Positions 1 to 7,573 of a DNA stretch of 23,639 nucleotides are shown one piece after another. Both the position numbers and the translations under genes were made by a program. The stretch is from the IMG/VR virus record IMGVR_UViG_2874945390_000005; one strand, given 5' to 3'. The notes beneath the pieces were generated by a model. The model was not told the DNA's origin. It was given only the letters and a program-made list of their open reading frames with translations, and ran no database searches. The DNA is from a virus. Taxonomy: Duplodnaviria > Heunggongvirae > Uroviricota > Caudoviricetes. The first letter of the stretch is position 1. Each line of letters starts with the position of its first letter.

Positions 1-1073
1 TCATTTGTTGATTTCAATTTTGTCCCATTCTCTCCCTCGGCTGTCCCTATACCGCGCCGCCATTGAATCTGATTTATGCCCGAGAAGACGTTGAGCAAAT
101 TTATCGCCAATCTGGTTCCGGTATAGCCTCGCTGACAGGCTACGCAGTTCATGGAATGTTGGCGGGTCTCCATCAAATGAGAGTCCGGAGGCATTTCTCG
201 CCTTTGTAAAATACTTTGATACTGTTTTCGGGGAAAGCGGATCGTGATGCTTTGATGCGATTATAGTTTCACTGCTGCTGGCCTCCCTGCATTTCTGTAG
301 TGTATCAACCAGTGAGATATTGAGCGCGTCAATCGTTAGCGTCAGCGGAATGGCGAGCTTAGCCCCTGTTTTACCCTGCTCAATGTGAAGATGGTTGTCG
401 TTTATGTCTGACCACTTCATTCTGCATAAATCGCCCACTCTCTGCCCTGTAATGACGGCCAAATCCATTGCCAGCCTCAGCCAGATAGGGAGAGGTTCGG
501 CTGCATGGTAAATCTCGACATACTCATTAGCTGTCAGCCTTGAGCGCCTTACTTCTGACTTTGCTGTGCGGGTTGCTGTTACCGGATTCGTAGCCACATG
601 CCCCTCGGCTATTGCTTCACGAAAAACGTCAACAAGGGTTGACCTGATTAATTTTGCGGAAGCCGCTTTACCTTCTGCTACGTAGGTATTTAGCATTGCT
701 GCCACCTCTTTCGTTGATATGTCAGTGAGCGGTTTGTCCGGCAATTTTCTTCGAATTGCCCTGATTTTGCTGGCGTAGTCGAGTAGAGTTTTCGGTCTGA
801 TGCCCCTCTCGCTGAGGATTGTTTCATATCGGTCAAGCCACGCATGAAGGGTGATTGAGTCAGCGCCTTTAATCCTGTCTATCAGTGACTCGCGCCCGCT
901 GTCTGATAGCAACTCAATGTTGGCCTGTATTGCTTCAGTGATTGCTATCCTCCTGTCTCGCCTAATCCGAACTCTTTACCCGTCCTTGGGTCCCTGTAGC
1001 AGTAATATCCATTGTTTCTTATATAAAGGTTAGGGGGTAAATCCCGGCGCTCATGACTTCGCCTTCTTCCCAT
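1..1073 (-). pseudogene. int: Lambda-type tyrosine integrase, reading frame broken near 945-962
   Basis: Minus-strand ATG at 1073-1071 overlaps the xis stop. The N-terminal frame gives MGRRRSHERRDLPPNLYIRNNGYYCYRDPRTGKEFGLG... then TAG at 947-945. The 303-codon ORF 1..912 continues in another frame (...ITEAIQANIE... ending REWDKIEINK) and carries the catalytic C-terminal domain. Both halves resemble lambda Int as recalled. Confidence 0.8.
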
Positions 1074-2010: not shown

Positions 2011-2712
2011 GGTTTTATGTCCTATCGCATATTTTGAATTCACCCCTTTTGAGAGGGTGGTCGGGCGCTCAAAACCGGCGATAGACGGCGGGCATATTTC
2101 CCTTGCGGGTGTTTTATTAGCCGCACGCCCGACCATTGAATTCTCAATGTCGTAGACATAAAAAAATCCGCATAACTGACGGGGCGGTTTCCGCTATCGC
2201 AAAGGTGTTTTGAGCACCATGAAGCGGAATATAGCCCCGTTAATGCGGTGTTGTCAAATCATGTAGGCCTTATCTTGCTGTAAGCCGCGCCATTCGGGCT
2301 TTTCCCCACATTTGGGGAAAACTATCTTGTCAAAATCATGCAGCCTTTCGCTCTCCTTCGATGAGTTCCTCTATTTTGTGCACTCCAGCCTCGTTGTACC
2401 GAAATGTTTCAACCTGCTTGTCATTGTGCGCCGATTTGTCGATGAACCACTTCCCGTACTTTTCTGTTTTGAGCATGTAGGTGTTGGCTATGCGTCCTAC
2501 CTTGTTGGCTGAAATACCGTAGCGCTGGCCGACTTCCGTAGCAGAGTAGTAGTGCTCTGAGATAGCTGGCAGGGGTACAACATCGCGACCAACAATCGGG
2601 TTGAACACTCCAGCTACTGCTGCCTGCTTTGATTCTGAGGACAGATTCGGGAACATATTCACCAGTCGATCCGCCACGTTCAAAGCTATTTCCATGGCTC
2701 GCGCACGGTCTA

Positions 2713-3854
2713 AATAGCTGCGCTTAATACCGCTACACTTTTGCCAGTCCATGTTTGCCTCCGGGGAATGGGCTGACGGTTTCCATAAAATGGCGAACTT
2801 TTTTCAACAGTTGCCACATTGAGCGGCACTGATGATTACGCGTTATTGTGTCGTGAAGTGCCTGCCATAGCCGTTCAACATGATTCACCCATGGCGAGTA
2901 AACCGGCTGATAAATGACCCTGAACTTCGGGTTCTCCTTCAGCCAGCTCTGTGTTTCCCGGCTTTTGTGGATAATGTAGTTGTCCACGATCAGCGTGATG
3001 GTTTTCGCCCGACGGTATGTCGCTTTAAGCCGCTTCAGCAGGCTGATGAACAGCGCCGAACTTTTGCTGTTGCCGCCCACATAGCTGACTTTACCTGTCC
3101 CGCTGTGCAGCGCTCCGGCCAGATAATATTTTTCATTCTGTCCCGGCGTGACCACCCGTTTTTGCTGTCCGCGCAGTTGCCAGTCCGCACCGATTTTGGG
3201 ATGAAGATGGATATCCACTTCATCTTCATAAAAGACCGGATGCTCTGCGCTGCATTCGTCCAGTGCTTTATGGATTGCTGCCATCTTTTCATCTTTATGC
3301 GGGTCACGGATACGCAGAGTTGGCGCAGCCCTTCGCCACACAATCCCCGCAGACGGCAACCAGCGGCGAACGGTTCCGGCATTTAACTGGCAACAGGTTA
3401 TCTCATTGATTTTTATTGCCAGCAGTTCTGTACTCCAGCGTGAACGCTGGTAGCCAAAGTCGCCGGGAGAATGTTTTACCAGCTCACGTAACAGTGTGCA
3501 ACGGCCAGCGACGGGCACGCCCGGCAGGTAATGATTTCAGTCCCTCAACACCCGACTGCGTGAACCAGTTAATCCAGCGTCCAACAGAGGAACGGGCGCA
3601 GCAGAGCGTTCTGGCAACGTCGCTGACACGGTCGCCCCGGTGCAGCATCAGCATGGCAGTCAGTCTGCGGGCATAATTTTTATCGTGTGTTTTATGGATG
3701 GCTTTCTGCATCAGGCGTCGTTCGTCACGGGAAATTGGTGCTATGATCGGCATTGCTCAGTCCGGTTGGTGATTTGTTTTGATTTGGCGATTGATCAGAT
3801 CGCACAATCCGGGCTAAGTTCCCTCAAAGTGATCTACTATTCCGCGCAGCTATT
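2713..3854 (-). mobile_element. IS630-family insertion sequence with TA target duplication (2711-2712 and 3855-3856) in a CTAG target
   Basis: Terminal inverted repeat aatagctgcgc at 2713-2723, reverse-complemented at 3844-3854. Flanks reconstruct to ggtcTAggct. Encodes an IS630-type transposase. Confidence 0.8.
2733..3753 (-). pseudogene. IS630-type transposase split into two overlapping frames
   Basis: N-terminal HTH part is ORF 3484..3753 (MPIIAPISRDERRLMQKAIHK...RRWPLHTVT*). The DDE part is ORF 2733..3518 (...CTLLRELVKHSPGDFGYQRSRW...). The frames overlap at 3484-3518, indicating a small indel. Confidence 0.8.
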
Positions 3855-4404
3855 TAGGCTACTTTCTGGTTGCGGTACTGGTTGAGGATGGTTGGCAACC
3901 TTTTCGCGCTGATTGAAGTAGCCGTCCTCCAGTTTTTCGAACACGTCCCATGCCTGATCGGTTTCGAGCATCTTCGCGTGACGGGCGGCTCCGCGCTCTG
4001 TCCAGAGGATGAGGTGGCGTGCATTTGGGGCAATTTTCACAAAGTAGTTTAAAGCTACTTTGTGTTTTAGCGCGCGCAGCTCGTCACCAACGACCTTGTA
4101 GAAGTGTACCCCCTCAACAAAGCGCGACTTGTTTTCATGATGGTTTTGCCGGATGCGCACAACATCCGTTCCGTACAACTGCGCCAATAGTTCGCTGGTG
4201 ATGACGTTGGTTTGTTTGTAGGTGATTGGTGAAAGTGTTTCGACAGAAATTTGAGTATTCATAGCGTCCTCACATTGGCTTTTGCATTGAAGAAAGCTTG
4301 ACGGTGAACTCGCCGTAACGAGTTCAGATAAAAGAAATCCCCGCGAGTGCGAGGATTGTTATTCATTGCCGATATTCACCTTTATCTCAAACACCTTTAT
4401 CGGC

Positions 4405-4647
4405 TTATCTCCTTTGCATGGCACGTAATTTTTTCAGATGGTTCTCCTGCTCTGTTTCAGCCAGGATCTGGTGATATTCTCTGTGATCAATGTGTTCGAA
4501 TAAATTATTGAATTTTCTGATGCACACCCTTCCAGGATAGCCATCCATCCTCTTGAAGAATACTGAGTGATCAGTACTACGAATGATTTTTACTGGATAG
4601 CCAGCGCTATCGGTGTATATCTGACCACGTTGAATCAGAGCGAACAT
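4405..4647 (-). CDS. Small phage protein, 80 aa (DUF4222-like by recall, uncertain)
   Basis: ATG at 4647-4645 with GGAG/AGGA upstream; MFALIQRGQIYTDSAGYPVKIIRSTDHSVFFKRMDGYPGRV... Confidence 0.55.
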   Translation of the reverse strand: MFALIQRGQIYTDSAGYPVKIIRSTDHSVFFKRMDGYPGRVCIRKFNNLFEHIDHREYHQILAETEQENHLKKLRAMQRR

Positions 4648-4651
4648 TCCT

Positions 4652-4735
4652 TTATCTCCAGCGGCAAATCGAATACATCATCAGTGCCACCGCCAGTGCG
4701 GTTCCTACCTCTTTGAATGCTTCAGGCCAGGTCAT
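4652..4735 (-). CDS. Candidate 27-aa hydrophobic peptide (MTWPEAFKEVGTALAVALMMYSICRWR)
   Basis: ATG at 4735-4733 overlaps the TGA of the upstream gene (ATGA). GGGAGG sits 7 nt upstream. TAA at 4654-4652 lies 4 nt before the next gene's ATG. Below the ORF-track length cut-off. Confidence 0.3.
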   Translation of the reverse strand: MTWPEAFKEVGTALAVALMMYSICRWR

Positions 4736-5127
4736 TGATTCACCTCCCGCTCAATATTTTTAAGGTCATTCTCCGCATACAGTATCGCTGTCCTGGCTGC
4801 TCGCAACCGCGCTTTGGCGTTTTTCTCTTCACGTTCAAGTTTTGCCACAGCTTCTCGAAGAGCGTCCCGCTTTGCATAAAGTGATTTAATCTCAGACACG
4901 ATGTTTTCGCCGTTTCTCGCGCGGTCGAGAACAAGTTCGAATGGATCTAAAGCCAATCCGCATCGGTTGCAGGTAATCGTACGATTCACTTCTGAAATTG
5001 TTGTACGGATATGCTGACAGCATTTTTGCTCGACGCTTTTTCTGTCGGTTATCACAACGTTGAGAAGTCCTTCCTCCTCTGATTTTGGCTGCACCAGGGT
5101 GATAACATTATCGCTGTTATCGTCCAT
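4732..5127 (-). CDS. Phage protein, 131 aa, Cys-rich motif plus C-terminal coiled-coil-like region
   Basis: ATG at 5127-5125 preceded by AGGAGG with a 7-nt spacer (MDDNSDNVITLVQPK...). The ORF-track start at 5193 lies inside IS2 and is rejected. Confidence 0.6.
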   Translation of the reverse strand: MDDNSDNVITLVQPKSEEEGLLNVVITDRKSVEQKCCQHIRTTISEVNRTITCNRCGLALDPFELVLDRARNGENIVSEIKSLYAKRDALREAVAKLEREEKNAKARLRAARTAILYAENDLKNIEREVNQ

Positions 5128-5177
5128 CACTTCACCTCCTGCGGCGGTTCTGGTAGCGGCATCCAGTGGATTTGCCC

Positions 5178-6083
5178 CTATATTTCCAGACATCTGTTAT
5201 CACTTAACCCATTACAAGCCCGCTGCCGCAGATATTCCCGTGGCGAGCGATAACCCAGCGCACTATGCGGATGCCATTCGTTATAATGCTCGAACGCCTC
5301 TGCAAGGTTCTTTGCTGCCGTTAACCCGTTTGGTTTGGGCATGATACTGATGTAGTCACGCTTTATCGTTTTCACGAAGCTCTCTGCTATTCCGTTACTC
5401 TCCGGACTCCGCACCGCCGTGTTCTTCGGTTCAAGTCCCAACATCCGGGCGAACTGGCGTGTTTCATTAGCCCGGTAGCATGAACCATTATCCGTCAGCC
5501 ACTCCACTGGAGACGACGGAAGATCGTTGCCGAAGCGGCGTTCCACCGCTCCCAGCATGACGTCCTGTACTGTTTCACTGTTGAAGCCGCCGGTAGTCAC
5601 CGCCCAGTGCAGTGCCTCACGATCACAGCAGTCCAGCGCGAACGTGACACGCAGTCTCTCTCCGTTATCACAGCAGAACTCGAACCCGTCAGAGCACCAT
5701 CGCTGATTGCTTTCTTTCACGGCCACTCTGCCTGTATGTGCCCGTTTCGATGGCGGTACAGCAGGTTTTCGCTCAAGCAACAGCGCATTCTGGCGCATGA
5801 TCCGGTAAACACGTTTGGCATTGATCGCAGGCATACCATCAAGTTCTGCCTGTCTGCGAAGCAGCGCCCATACCCGACGATAACCATACGTGGGCAGCTC
5901 TCCGATAACATGGTGTATACGGAGAAGCACATCCGTATCATCAGTGTGACGACTGCGGCGGCCATCCATCCAGTCATCGGTTCGTCTGAGAATGACGTGC
6001 AACTGCGCACGCGACACCCGGAGACAACGGCTGACTAAGCTTACTCCCCATCCCCGGGCAATAAGGGCGCGTGCGCTATCCAC
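5178..6083 (-). CDS. insD: IS2 transposase OrfB (InsD)
   Basis: 301-aa [52 protein letters not shown]... matches IS2 InsD as recalled. Confidence 0.9.
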
Positions 6084-6363
6084 TTTTTTGCCCGTCCATA
6101 TTCAACGGCTTCTTTGAGGAGTTCATTTTCCATCGTTTTCTTGCCGAGCAGGCGCTGGAGTTCTTTAATCTGCTTCATGGTGGCAGCAAGTTCAGAGGCA
6201 GGAACAACCTGTTCTCCGGCGGCCACAGCAGTAAGACTTCCTTCCTGGTATTGCTTACGCCAGAGAAATAACTGGCTGGCTGCTACACCATGTTGCCGGG
6301 CAACGAGGGTGAACCGCCCCGGGAATCCTGGAGACTAAACTTCCTGAGAAAGAGGTAAACAGG

Positions 6364-6686
6364 ATGACTAAAAATACTCGTTTTTCCCCCGAAGTCCGTC
6401 AACGGGCAGTCCGTATGGTTCTGGAAAGTCAGGGCGAATATGACTCACAATGGGCGACAATTTGTTCCATTGCTCCAAAGATTGGCTGTACGCCGGAGAC
6501 TCTGCGTGTCTGGGTTCGCCAGCATGAGCGGGATACCGGGGGCGGTGATGGAGGGCTCACCACCGCTGAACGTCAGCGTCTGAAAGAGCTGGAGCGTGAA
6601 AATCGTGAACTGCGCCGCAGTAACGATATCCTTCGCCAGGCTTCCGCTTATTTTGCGAAGGCGGAGTTCGACCGCCTCTGGAAAAA

Positions 6687-6690
<4 letters not shown>
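6364..6690 (+). CDS. IS629 OrfA
   Basis: 108-aa [45 protein letters not shown]..., IS3-family OrfA with HTH. Confidence 0.9.

Positions 6691-7573
<883 letters not shown>

What the first reader, a model, noticed from the sequence alone, without database searches (positions are those of the whole stretch)
4652..4735. Unannotated 27-aa hydrophobic peptide gene wedged between two phage genes
The ORF is below the length cut-off but has three independent signals of being real. GGGAGG sits 7 nt upstream of its ATG. The ATG overlaps the upstream gene's TGA in an ATGA arrangement. Its TAA lies 4 nt before the next ATG. The product (MTWPEAFKEVGTALAVALMMYSICRWR) has a 14-residue hydrophobic core and a basic tail, like small membrane-active phage peptides or type I toxins.
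Basis: seen in the sequence. Interest (0 to 1): 0.5.

Follow-up and report, generated by a model that had tools for sequence, protein, structure and literature searches.

The report
Unannotated 27-residue phage membrane peptide gene
The 27-codon reading frame is very probably a real, conserved phage gene for a tiny membrane-spanning peptide; standard annotation misses it although about 30% of complete E. coli genomes and the Shiga-toxin phages 933W and VT2-Sakai carry it, and its function is unknown.

Summary
On the minus strand (4735..4652) a 27-codon ORF has GGGAGG 7 nt upstream, its ATG overlaps the upstream gene's TGA (ATGA), and its TAA lies 4 nt before the ATG of a DUF4222 gene.

It is a real gene family. 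I collected 197 intact copies (66 distinct DNA sequences, 42 distinct peptides). All keep the ATG, a Shine-Dalgarno and a 27-codon length. Substitution events fall 54:44:116 on codon positions 1:2:3, and synonymous changes are enriched (p = 3e-8). dN/dS is 0.43, against 0.96 and 1.61 in the other two frames. In the hydrophobic core, 60 of 63 amino-acid changes stay apolar.

The ORF travels as its own module behind at least five different upstream genes. It occurs in lambdoid prophages, IncY P1-like phage-plasmids and Vequintavirinae phages. RefSeq leaves it unannotated, and Pfam, PHROGs and NCBIfam have no family for it.

The "small membrane peptide" reading is supported. The "type I toxin" reading is not: there is no promoter-like site on either strand, no antisense RNA and no sequestering RNA structure, and the ORF is translationally coupled inside an operon. 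Its function is unknown. This is a new family of a known kind, of moderate interest.

The parts
4652..4735 (-). 27-codon small ORF (MTWPEAFKEVGTALAVALMMYSICRWR, stop TAA): a member of a conserved family of phage peptides of consensus MTWPEAFTTVGIAMAVALVVYSICRWG.
   Evidence: Searches give the sequence. Searches show 197 intact 27-codon copies and 42 distinct peptides. Searches show coding-type substitution. One search gives the hydrophobic 19-residue window at residues 6-24.
4743..4748 (-). Shine-Dalgarno GGGAGG, 7 nt before the ATG. It lies inside the last codons (E-R-E-V-N-Q) of the upstream gene.
   Evidence: One search gives the sequence. In one search all 108 unique contexts have a Shine-Dalgarno-like motif, and 97 of them have GGAGG.
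4732..4735 (-). ATGA overlap: the start codon of the small ORF and the TGA stop of the upstream gene share three bases.
   Evidence: In one search the first base of codon 2 is A in all 66 distinct sequences (0 changes), which preserves the ATGA, while the second base changed 9 times.
4732..5127 (-). Upstream gene of 131 aa and unknown function (phrog_1621), with a Cys-x2-Cys...Cys-x2-Cys stretch and a C-terminal coiled-coil-like segment. Its stop is coupled to the small ORF.
   Evidence: searches (E = 4e-48; annotated as WP_004976379.1, 131 aa) and the translation.
4648..4651 (-). 4-nt spacer (AGGA) between the small ORF's TAA and the DUF4222 ATG. The last sense codons TGG-AGA (TGG-GGA in most alleles) supply a GGAG/GGGGA Shine-Dalgarno-like motif 7-8 nt before that ATG.
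   Evidence: In some searches the gap is exactly 4 nt in all 64 anchored loci with an intact ORF and in all 94 instances followed by a full-length DUF4222 gene.
4405..4647 (-). Downstream gene of 80 aa with a DUF4222 domain. It is a distant relative of the EHEC type III secretion regulator RgdR and is probably translated by coupling to the small ORF.
   Evidence: PF13973, E = 3e-15; phrog_285; RgdR carries DUF4222; 39% identity to RgdR over only 31 residues.
4336..4357 (-). Terminator-like hairpin followed by a T-run, 48 nt after the DUF4222 stop. It may mark the end of this transcription segment.
   Evidence: a consensus match only.
5128..5177 (-). 3' remnant of a DUF551 gene (...HWMPLPEPPQEVK, stop) cut by an IS2-type insertion. 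It carries the same GGAGGTGA junction motif that precedes the small ORF in other phages.
   Evidence: for comparison with L001 and BP-4795; for the DUF551 C-termini.

Best explanation
The ORF is a genuine protein-coding gene, one member of a so far unnamed family of 27-residue phage peptides.

Shown: it is translated from its own strong Shine-Dalgarno and is coupled to the stop codon of whatever gene precedes it (ATGA). Where a DUF4222 gene follows, that gene starts 4 nt after the ORF's stop and its ribosome-binding motif lies in the ORF's last codons, so the three genes form one translationally coupled chain in the leftward (integrase-proximal) accessory region of the phage.

Inferred: the peptide is a single transmembrane helix. 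Tryptophans sit at both ends (W3, W26), the N-terminal motif W-P-E-A-F is acidic and the C-terminal motif Y-S-I-C-R-W-G is basic. By the positive-inside rule this predicts the N-terminus outside and the C-terminus in the cytoplasm.

Most likely, but untested: it works in the inner membrane during phage development by binding a membrane protein of the host or the phage, as other bacterial and phage peptides under 50 aa do. It is unlikely to act as an autonomous toxin. A secondary role is to deliver ribosomes to the downstream DUF4222 gene.
For: Frame, length and signals:
- 133 of 134 pattern-found copies are 27 codons, although the stop was not part of the pattern.
- In 79 usable of 80 loci chosen only by the neighbouring DUF4222 gene, 64 carry an intact 27-codon ORF ending 4 nt before that gene. 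The 15 exceptions trace to two events: one frameshift, and one decayed allele in 14 loci.
- All 108 unique contexts have a Shine-Dalgarno, and codon 2 always begins with A, keeping the ATGA.

Coding-type evolution:
- Parsimony events on a tree of 66 distinct sequences fall 54:44:116 by codon position (p = 5e-10).
- For codons 7-20 alone, which the search pattern left free, the counts are 44:28:78 (summed from the table; chi-square 26, p about 2e-6).
- 90 synonymous against 104 nonsynonymous events, with 28% synonymous expected (p = 3e-8).
- 60 of 63 core replacements stay apolar or small.
- In the anchored sample dN/dS is 0.43, against 0.96 and 1.61 for the other same-strand frames and 0.10 for DUF4222.

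Module behaviour:
- blastn homology in several phages covers exactly ATG to stop (query 406-490; 25-550).
- At least 5 upstream gene families and several downstream contexts flank it.

Membrane character:
- The best 19-residue Kyte-Doolittle window is residues 6-24 in all seven alleles tested, with means of 1.9-2.8 for six of them and 1.38 for the window allele.
- The N-terminal part carries net charge -1, and the C-terminal part +1 or +2 in six of the seven alleles (0 in the R25H variant).

Rivals excluded: no promoter-like sites, no Rfam hit at the ORF, no conserved RNA structure.

Submitters have occasionally deposited identical peptides as 'bacteriophage protein' or 'prophage protein'.
Against: There is no direct evidence of translation or of the peptide itself. 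The two EHEC ribosome-profiling papers checked do not list it, and one of them excluded ORFs under 30 aa by design.

dN/dS of 0.43 is only moderate constraint. One lineage carries a decayed copy, so the gene is dispensable.

The window's own allele has K8-E9 in place of the usual T/A/V-T. This lowers its hydrophobicity to borderline (Kyte-Doolittle mean 1.38) and leaves only about 15 apolar residues.

Membrane insertion and topology are inferred from composition only; the peptide is too short for the structure-prediction tool.

A test for conservation along one helical face, which would have supported partner binding, was not significant (p = 0.46).

In this window the prophage is riddled with IS elements and cut off from its early promoter, so expression of this particular copy is uncertain.
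Confidence: 0.8

Rival explanations
1. It is a type I toxin: a small membrane-depolarising peptide whose translation is normally blocked by an antisense RNA and which kills or arrests cells when that RNA is lost.
For: Its size, single hydrophobic helix and basic C-terminus resemble TisB, ShoB, DinQ and Ibs (my knowledge of those families; composition). In 933W-type phages it lies just upstream of a hok/sok locus. Toxicity on overexpression was not tested.
Against: No promoter-like site lies on either strand within 4200-5300; 1.9 would be expected by chance. There is no Rfam antisense RNA at the site. Conservation stops at the ORF boundaries, leaving no room for a conserved antisense gene or long 5' leader. 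No conserved RNA structure sequesters the Shine-Dalgarno. The ORF has a consensus GGAGG and an ATGA overlap, so it is translated whenever the operon is. It matches no HOK_GEF, Ldr, TisB or other Pfam or NCBIfam model. Up to 7 places per genome match it.
Confidence: 0.05
2. It is only a translational relay. What matters is that ribosomes read through this short frame and re-initiate on the next gene (DUF4222), and the peptide itself has no function.
For: The spacing to DUF4222 is invariably 4 nt, and that gene's ribosome-binding motif lies within the ORF's last codons. Every DUF4222 gene sampled had the ORF or its remnant upstream.
Against: A relay would not need a conserved amino-acid sequence. 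Yet synonymous changes are enriched, replacements stay hydrophobic, and the terminal motifs WPEAF and YSICRW are nearly invariant. About half of the copies have no coupled downstream gene: hok/mok lies about 153 nt away, or there is no same-strand ORF of at least 40 aa starting within 200 nt; in one such locus a hairpin with a T-run follows the stop and the next genes are on the opposite strand. Those copies still keep the same 27-codon peptide.
Confidence: 0.08
3. It is not a gene. The conserved ~100-bp block is a recombination 'linker' between mosaic phage modules, or another DNA or RNA element, and the open frame is incidental.
For: The block sits exactly at mosaic junctions and is flanked by different genes in different phages. 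Similar GGAGGTGA junction motifs recur at other gene boundaries, for example at 5128-5140 in the window.
Against: Variation has 3-nt periodicity in the order position 3 > 1 > 2. Both other same-strand frames contain stops in 58 and 55 of 58 sequences. The ATG and the stop position are conserved. There is no RNA structure: consensus -1.07 kcal/mol, one covarying pair, and z = -0.11 for the window. There is no Rfam family at the site.
Confidence: 0.04
4. The real gene is on the opposite (plus) strand, in the antisense frame whose wobble positions coincide with those of the small ORF.
For: That antisense frame is open across the block in 56 of 58 sequences and shows an apparent dN/dS of 0.33. One phage record annotates a long antisense ORF there (C38 in Stx2 II).
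Against: This frame shares third positions with the sense frame, so it inherits a low dN/dS automatically. Its stop-to-stop limits and its first possible start change with the flanking genes, and a start is often absent. In the window no plus-strand ORF of at least 20 aa in that frame overlaps 4652-4735. Sense position 2 varies less than position 1 (44 against 54 events), as expected if the minus strand is the coding one. No promoter-like site lies on the plus strand.
Confidence: 0.01

Closest known systems
Small single-pass inner-membrane proteins of enterobacteria that regulate larger membrane proteins (AcrZ, MgrB, MgtS, KdpF, CydX, PmrR; Caulobacter SidA)
   Same: They are under 50 residues with one hydrophobic helix and a positive-inside charge bias. 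They are often missed by annotation and often sit in operons with tight or overlapping junctions (my knowledge of these proteins; review PMC12648545 listed, not read).
   Different: There is no sequence relationship: the best NCBIfam hit is KdpF at E = 0.26 and 11 bits against a cut-off of 27. The peptide is phage-borne, not chromosomal, and no partner is known. A test for a conserved helix face was negative.
Small host-directed proteins of the lambdoid early-left operon and cryptic prophages (lambda Kil, Rac KilR, Qin DicB and YdfD, lambda Orf63/Orf61/Orf73 of the exo-xis region)
   Same: They occupy the same genomic neighbourhood, between the recombination genes and xis/int. They are small accessory genes dispensable for growth and expressed with the early genes. 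YdfD is a small membrane-targeted protein (K-12 annotation; PMC3961180, PMC10869804 and PMC9239242 listed).
   Different: No homology. None of them is a 27-residue transmembrane peptide, and K-12's Rac, Qin, DLP12 and e14 lack this ORF altogether. No effect on the host has been shown for this peptide.
Type I toxins (Hok/Gef, TisB, ShoB, DinQ, Ibs, Ldr, ZorO)
   Same: Similar size and hydrophobic single-helix character. A hok/sok locus is the next downstream element in 933W-type phages.
   Different: There is no antisense RNA, no promoter of its own, no sequestered ribosome-binding site and no family match. It is operon-embedded and ATGA-coupled.
Hypothetical small-protein entries already in GenBank ('bacteriophage protein' CVM9545/CVM9574, 'hypothetical protein FORC28_2400', 'Prophage protein' CAL6704654)
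   Same: These are identical 27-aa sequences for several alleles of this family.
   Different: They are sporadic submitter calls with no family, domain, name or function. The window's own allele is not in the 15-billion-protein collection. RefSeq/PGAP leaves the ORF out, and the collection also carries 30-45-aa wrong-frame or extended calls across it, two of them named partial 'DUF551' proteins.

Membership tests
Type I toxin-antitoxin toxin | Small hydrophobic peptide (about 20-60 aa) with one predicted transmembrane helix | tested here: met
   27 aa. The best 19-residue Kyte-Doolittle window is residues 6-24, with a mean of 1.38 for the window allele and 1.9-2.8 for the six other alleles tested.
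Type I toxin-antitoxin toxin | Cognate antisense or divergent small RNA with its own promoter that blocks toxin translation | tested here: not met
   No promoter-like sites on either strand in 4200-5300. No Rfam RNA at the site. Conservation ends at the ORF borders.
Type I toxin-antitoxin toxin | Own transcription unit whose structured leader hides the ribosome-binding site | tested here: not met
   An exposed GGAGG Shine-Dalgarno and an ATGA overlap with the preceding gene in 108 contexts. No conserved structure.
Type I toxin-antitoxin toxin | Sequence membership in a known toxin family (HOK_GEF, Ldr, TisB, Ibs, ShoB, DinQ and others) | tested here: not met
   No Pfam, NCBIfam or PADLOC match for three alleles (two for PADLOC). 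The neighbouring Hok in 933W-type loci does match HOK_GEF.
Type I toxin-antitoxin toxin | Growth arrest or membrane damage on expression | not testable with these tools
   Needs an inducible-expression experiment.
Translationally coupled operon gene (bona fide coding sequence) | Start codon, Shine-Dalgarno and stop position conserved among homologues | tested here: met
   133 of 134 and 64 of 79 copies are intact at 27 codons. All 108 contexts have a Shine-Dalgarno, and the ATGA is preserved.
Translationally coupled operon gene (bona fide coding sequence) | Coding-type substitution pattern (position 3 > 1 > 2; dN/dS below 1 only in this frame on this strand) | tested here: met
   54:44:116 (p = 5e-10). 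Synonymous enrichment p = 3e-8. dN/dS 0.43 against 0.96 and 1.61 in the other frames.
Translationally coupled operon gene (bona fide coding sequence) | Direct evidence of translation (ribosome footprints, tagged product, mass spectrometry) | not testable with these tools
   None found. Hücker et al. 2017 excluded ORFs under 30 aa, and the peptide strings are absent from the papers and supplements searched.
Phage holin / single-gene lysis protein | Located in the lysis cassette next to endolysin and spanin genes (holin), or the sole lysis gene of a small phage | tested here: not met
   It lies in the int-proximal accessory region between DUF551/Ea-type genes and DUF4222, xis and int.
KdpF (TIGR02115) | Score above the curated cut-off, and linkage to kdpABC | tested here: not met
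   11.4 bits against a cut-off of 26.85, E = 0.26. No kdp genes nearby.
Leader peptide / attenuator | Short ORF followed by alternative terminator and antiterminator RNA structures | tested here: not met
   No conserved structure. The window's fold has z = -0.11. The peptide sequence is itself conserved.

The most novel reading that the evidence does not exclude
The peptide is a host-takeover effector shared by temperate and virulent coliphages, including the Shiga-toxin phages. In this reading the 27-residue transmembrane helix docks onto a specific inner-membrane machine of E. coli (divisome, a transporter, FtsH or a sensor kinase) through its invariant W-P-E-A-F and Y-S-I-C-R-W ends. In addition, its translation gates production of the RgdR-like DUF4222 regulator that follows it, so it could influence prophage induction or virulence regulation in EHEC and Shigella.
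Probability: 0.2. Interest if true: 0.6.

Novelty: new member of a known kind. Interest (0 to 1): 0.4.

Why it matters
If confirmed experimentally, this would add a widespread gene to the annotation of E. coli and Shigella prophages: 1612 of 5426 complete E. coli genomes, with up to 7 matching places each. It would also add it to medically important Shiga-toxin phages such as 933W and VT2-Sakai, where it is absent from RefSeq.

It shows how a fixed length cut-off hides conserved genes. At 84 nt including the stop, the ORF is below the 90-nt minimum gene length that, to my knowledge, common gene callers use, and below the 30-aa limit of the EHEC ribosome-profiling survey. Wrong-frame or extended 30-45-aa entries, two of them named partial 'DUF551' proteins, are deposited across it in its place.

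Small membrane peptides often act as specific regulators of large membrane proteins. One conserved across lambdoid, P1-like and Vequintavirinae phages is therefore a reasonable candidate for a new phage-host interaction.

Its tight coupling to DUF4222 genes, relatives of the T3SS regulator RgdR, means constructs and mutants in that region should take it into account.

It is not a surprise in kind: many small phage genes remain unannotated.

Tried and rejected
1. Fusion to DUF551. The 27-aa entries cluster with 121- and 185-aa DUF551 proteins, but those proteins end at ...PPQEVNQ and do not contain the peptide. The short 'partial DUF551' entries are wrong-frame or extended calls (frame analysis). 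I saw no slippery heptamer by eye, and in the window the ORF's frame has a stop 4 codons upstream of its ATG.

2. A conserved helical face (P4, G11, A15, S22) as a partner interface. The permutation test on the periodicity of variability gave p = 0.46, so I dropped it.

3. The published 99-aa RgdR (ECs1581) model overlapping this ORF. RgdR lies in a different, P4-like element (Sakai Sp7) with no family member upstream. It shares only 39% identity over 31 residues with the window's DUF4222 protein.

4. The antisense-frame gene, rejected.

5. An RNA element, rejected.

6. A K-12 copy with an existing gene name. Rac, Qin, DLP12 and e14 have none.

7. Large protein-database searches. Structure prediction needs at least 30 aa, so it was not run.

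8. Solved structures and PADLOC: nothing for the peptide.

9. Literature. The string MTWPEAF appears in no paper. There are no hits in the supplements of the two EHEC translatome papers. No supplement text is held for the 2026 UPEC preprint.

Full report
**1. The observation**

The ORF lies on the minus strand: ATG at 4735-4733 and TAA at 4654-4652, 27 codons, product MTWPEAFKEVGTALAVALMMYSICRWR. GGGAGG is followed by TGAATCA (7 nt) and then the ATG. The ATG overlaps a TGA stop as ATGA. The TAA is followed by AGGA and then the ATG of the next gene.

The neighbours are real phage genes:
- The upstream gene is a 131-aa protein of unknown function (5127..4732; phrog_1621, E = 4e-48). It is annotated as such in a 99.8% identical E. 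coli locus. The 153-aa ORF in the mechanical list is this gene extended through the 3' remnant of a DUF551 gene that an IS2-type element has cut.
- The downstream gene (4647..4405) is an 80-aa DUF4222 protein (Pfam E = 3e-15).

The wider context reads integrase, excisionase, antirepressor/ORF6N pieces (split by an IS630-type element), DUF4222, small ORF, 131-aa gene, DUF551 remnant, then IS2 and IS3 elements. This is the integrase-proximal end of the leftward operon of a defective, IS-riddled lambdoid prophage.

A 27-codon ORF proves nothing by itself: one search lists 92 ORFs of at least 20 aa overlapping window 2500-7500. The question had to be settled by comparison.

**2. It is unannotated but widespread**

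RefSeq leaves an empty gap at the ORF in the near-identical E. coli locus, in a 92% identical one, and in 933W, BP-4795, TH18, PhiR12_4, Stx2 II and Av-05.

- tblastn finds the peptide at 50-77% identity in 90 or so phage records.
- blastn finds the 101-nt block in 1612 of 5426 complete E. coli genomes, with up to 7 places per genome.
- tblastn finds it on 181 plasmids, mostly non-mobilizable and about 90-100 kb, in E. coli, E. albertii, E. fergusonii, Salmonella (25) and Klebsiella (1).
- One such plasmid is an IncY replicon carrying a Phd antitoxin gene, a DNA polymerase III theta-subunit gene and an S24 peptidase gene, which I recognise as P1-like.
- Av-05 and TH18 are Vequintavirinae by their taxonomy lines. 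From my own knowledge this is a virulent, rV5-like group.
- A degenerate codon pattern built from the invariant residues found 7 stretches in a collection holding one genome per species. Five are in Escherichia or Shigella. Two are tiny contigs in Xanthomonas and Acinetobacter assemblies made of E. coli-phage-like DNA (933W-like in one), probably contamination.
- The four lambdoid remnants of K-12 have no copy. That explains why the K-12-centred small-protein surveys never named it.

**3. It is a coding sequence**

*Length and integrity.* 133 of 134 pattern-found copies stop after exactly 27 codons, although the stop was not in the pattern. To remove the bias of that pattern I collected 80 loci through the neighbouring DUF4222 protein only, of which 79 were usable. 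Of these, 64 have an intact 27-codon family member ending exactly 4 nt before the DUF4222 ATG, including variants the pattern would have missed (Y21F, S22A, P4R/S). One has a 1-nt frameshift. Fourteen share a single decayed allele with a 1-nt deletion and an internal deletion. So the gene is usually maintained and occasionally lost, as expected for an accessory prophage gene.

*Substitution pattern.* Over 197 intact copies (66 distinct DNA sequences, 42 distinct peptides), parsimony events on a neighbour-joining tree fall 54:44:116 on codon positions 1:2:3 (p = 5e-10). For codons 7-20 alone, which no search pattern constrained, the counts are 44:28:78 (summed). Synonymous events number 90 of 194 against 28% expected (p = 3e-8). 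In the hydrophobic core 60 of 63 replacements stay apolar or small.

*dN/dS.* In the anchored sample dN/dS is 0.43, against 0.96 and 1.61 in the other two frames of the same strand and 0.10 for the DUF4222 gene next door.

*Start signals.* Every one of 108 unique contexts has a Shine-Dalgarno (GGAGG in 97). The first base of codon 2 is always A, although its second base changed nine times, so the ATGA overlap is preserved.

**4. Rivals**

*Antisense gene.* One antisense frame shares wobble positions with the ORF and so also shows a low dN/dS (0.33). Its start and stop move with the flanking genes and a start is often missing. The window has no ORF of at least 20 aa in that frame at the site.

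*RNA element.* Rfam has nothing at the site. The consensus fold of 17 diverse copies is worth -1.07 kcal/mol with one covarying pair. The window's RNA folds no better than shuffled sequence (z = -0.11).

*Recombination linker.* The block does sit at mosaic junctions. Several phages share homology with the window over exactly ATG to stop (query 406-490; 25-550). At least five unrelated upstream genes precede the ORF. Downstream lie DUF4222, hok/mok about 153 nt away, several other genes, or no same-strand ORF of at least 40 aa starting within 200 nt. But a non-coding linker would not show 3-nt periodicity or conserve a reading frame. The mosaic boundaries simply respect the gene's ends.

*Type I toxin.* There is no promoter-like site on either strand between 4200 and 5300, no antisense RNA, no structured leader and no family match. 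The ORF is translated whenever the operon is. That is incompatible with how such toxins are held in check.

*Fusion to DUF551.* This was suggested by database clustering and is an artefact of wrong-frame or extended partial annotations.

**5. What it most likely does**

*Shown.* It is a conserved, translationally coupled small gene. Its product has a hydrophobic stretch at residues 6-24, invariant tryptophans at positions 3 and 26, an acidic N-terminal motif (W-P-E/D-A-F) and a basic C-terminal motif (Y-S-I-C-R-W-G/R). Conservation is highest at the two ends and at G11, A15 and A17.

*Inferred.* The peptide is a single transmembrane helix with the N-terminus outside and the C-terminus inside, by the positive-inside rule.

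*Inferred.* Where DUF4222 follows, that gene's only ribosome-binding motif (TGG-GGA or TGG-AGA) lies in the ORF's last codons and its ATG is 4 nt after the stop. Its translation is therefore probably coupled to that of the ORF.

*Proposed, untested.* The peptide acts in the inner membrane during phage development by binding a membrane protein, as many bacterial peptides under 50 aa do. The test for a conserved helix face that would have supported this was negative (p = 0.46).

The presence of the ORF in Vequintavirinae, which I know as virulent phages, points to a role in lytic growth more than in lysogeny.

The window's own allele (K8, E9) is rare, found in 6 of 197 copies. It is the least hydrophobic allele, and it sits in a prophage severed from its promoter, so this particular copy may be weakly functional or silent.

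**6. Relation to what is known**

No Pfam, PHROG, NCBIfam, PADLOC or PDB entry covers the peptide. Identical 27-aa sequences for some alleles exist in GenBank as 'bacteriophage protein', 'prophage protein' or 'hypothetical protein'. The ORF has therefore been called before, but never named, grouped or studied.

No paper in the searched library contains the sequence. The Sakai translatome study considered only ORFs of at least 30 aa.

DUF4222 is the domain of RgdR, a prophage-encoded activator of the LEE type III secretion system. RgdR itself lies in a different element without this ORF and is only distantly related to the window's protein.

**7. Verdict**

This is a real gene and a new family within a well-known kind: small phage membrane peptides missed by length cut-offs. 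Interest is moderate. The gene is widespread and present in Shiga-toxin phages, but its function is unknown and its existence is not surprising in kind.

Noticed in passing
window 5128-5193 (-) and 5178-6083 (-): The 3' end of a DUF551 gene (...HWMPLPEPPQEVK, stop) is cut by an IS2-type element. The mechanical 153-aa ORF 4732-5193 is the real 131-aa gene extended, in its own frame, back through this remnant.
   Followed up: partly
window 2733-3753 (-), with 2336-2752 and 3837-4262 (-): An IS630-type element with two overlapping transposase ORFs lies between antirepressor-like pieces. The 141-aa ORF at 3837-4262 has an ORF6N domain (E = 2.5e-20).
   Followed up: partly
window 6645-6761 (+): Rfam ALIL pseudoknot (116 bits), the frameshift-stimulating structure of an IS3-family element at 6364-7573.
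   Followed up: no
window 14998-15074 (+) and 15099-15186 (+): Rfam isrK (61.6 bits) immediately followed by C4 antisense RNA (78.6 bits), a pair of phage regulatory RNAs elsewhere in the prophage.
   Followed up: no
window 2051-2134 (-): Rfam sRNA-Xcc1 match (78 bits) lying inside or overlapping the 5' end of the 260-aa ORF 1354-2136.
   Followed up: no
Public protein entries P0012, P0018 and P0019: Entries of 30-45 aa (GGESMTWPEAF..., GEMMNWPEAF..., MDTITLDAATGTAAGGEMMNWPEAF...), the first two named 'DUF551 domain-containing protein, partial' and the third 'hypothetical protein', are wrong-frame or over-extended calls that actually contain this small ORF. True DUF551 proteins end ...PLPEPPQEVNQ.
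   Followed up: yes
L009 (Xanthomonas pisi DSM 18956, 431 bp) and L012 (Acinetobacter idrijaensis MII, 369 bp): These tiny contigs in non-enterobacterial assemblies consist of E. coli lambdoid phage DNA (the small ORF plus hok in one, DUF551 plus the small ORF in the other). They are probably contamination.
   Followed up: partly
L005 (phage TH18) 1501-1584 and L217 (phage Av-05) 1501-1584: The same 27-codon ORF, ATGA-coupled to an EaA-like gene and followed 2 nt later by the next gene, occurs in Vequintavirinae genomes, which I know as virulent phages. Lambdoid 'ea' accessory modules are thus shared with them.
   Followed up: partly
L140-L152 type loci (14 IMG/VR loci), about 70 nt upstream of the DUF4222 ATG: One decayed allele of the small ORF has a 1-nt deletion after the ATG plus an internal deletion, leaving a 9-codon ORF. 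The WPEVF remnant is then in frame with DUF4222 but has no start codon.
   Followed up: partly
L216 (Stx2 II) 201-950 (-): The record annotates a 250-aa 'hypothetical protein' (ORF C38) antisense to L0139-like gene c34 and to the small ORF. It is probably a spurious call.
   Followed up: no
L003 (933W) 1501-1584 and 1676-1950: In 933W-type Stx phages the small ORF ends about 90 nt before the sokW/mokW/hokW type I toxin-antitoxin locus. The two are adjacent, but nothing in the sequence links them.
   Followed up: partly
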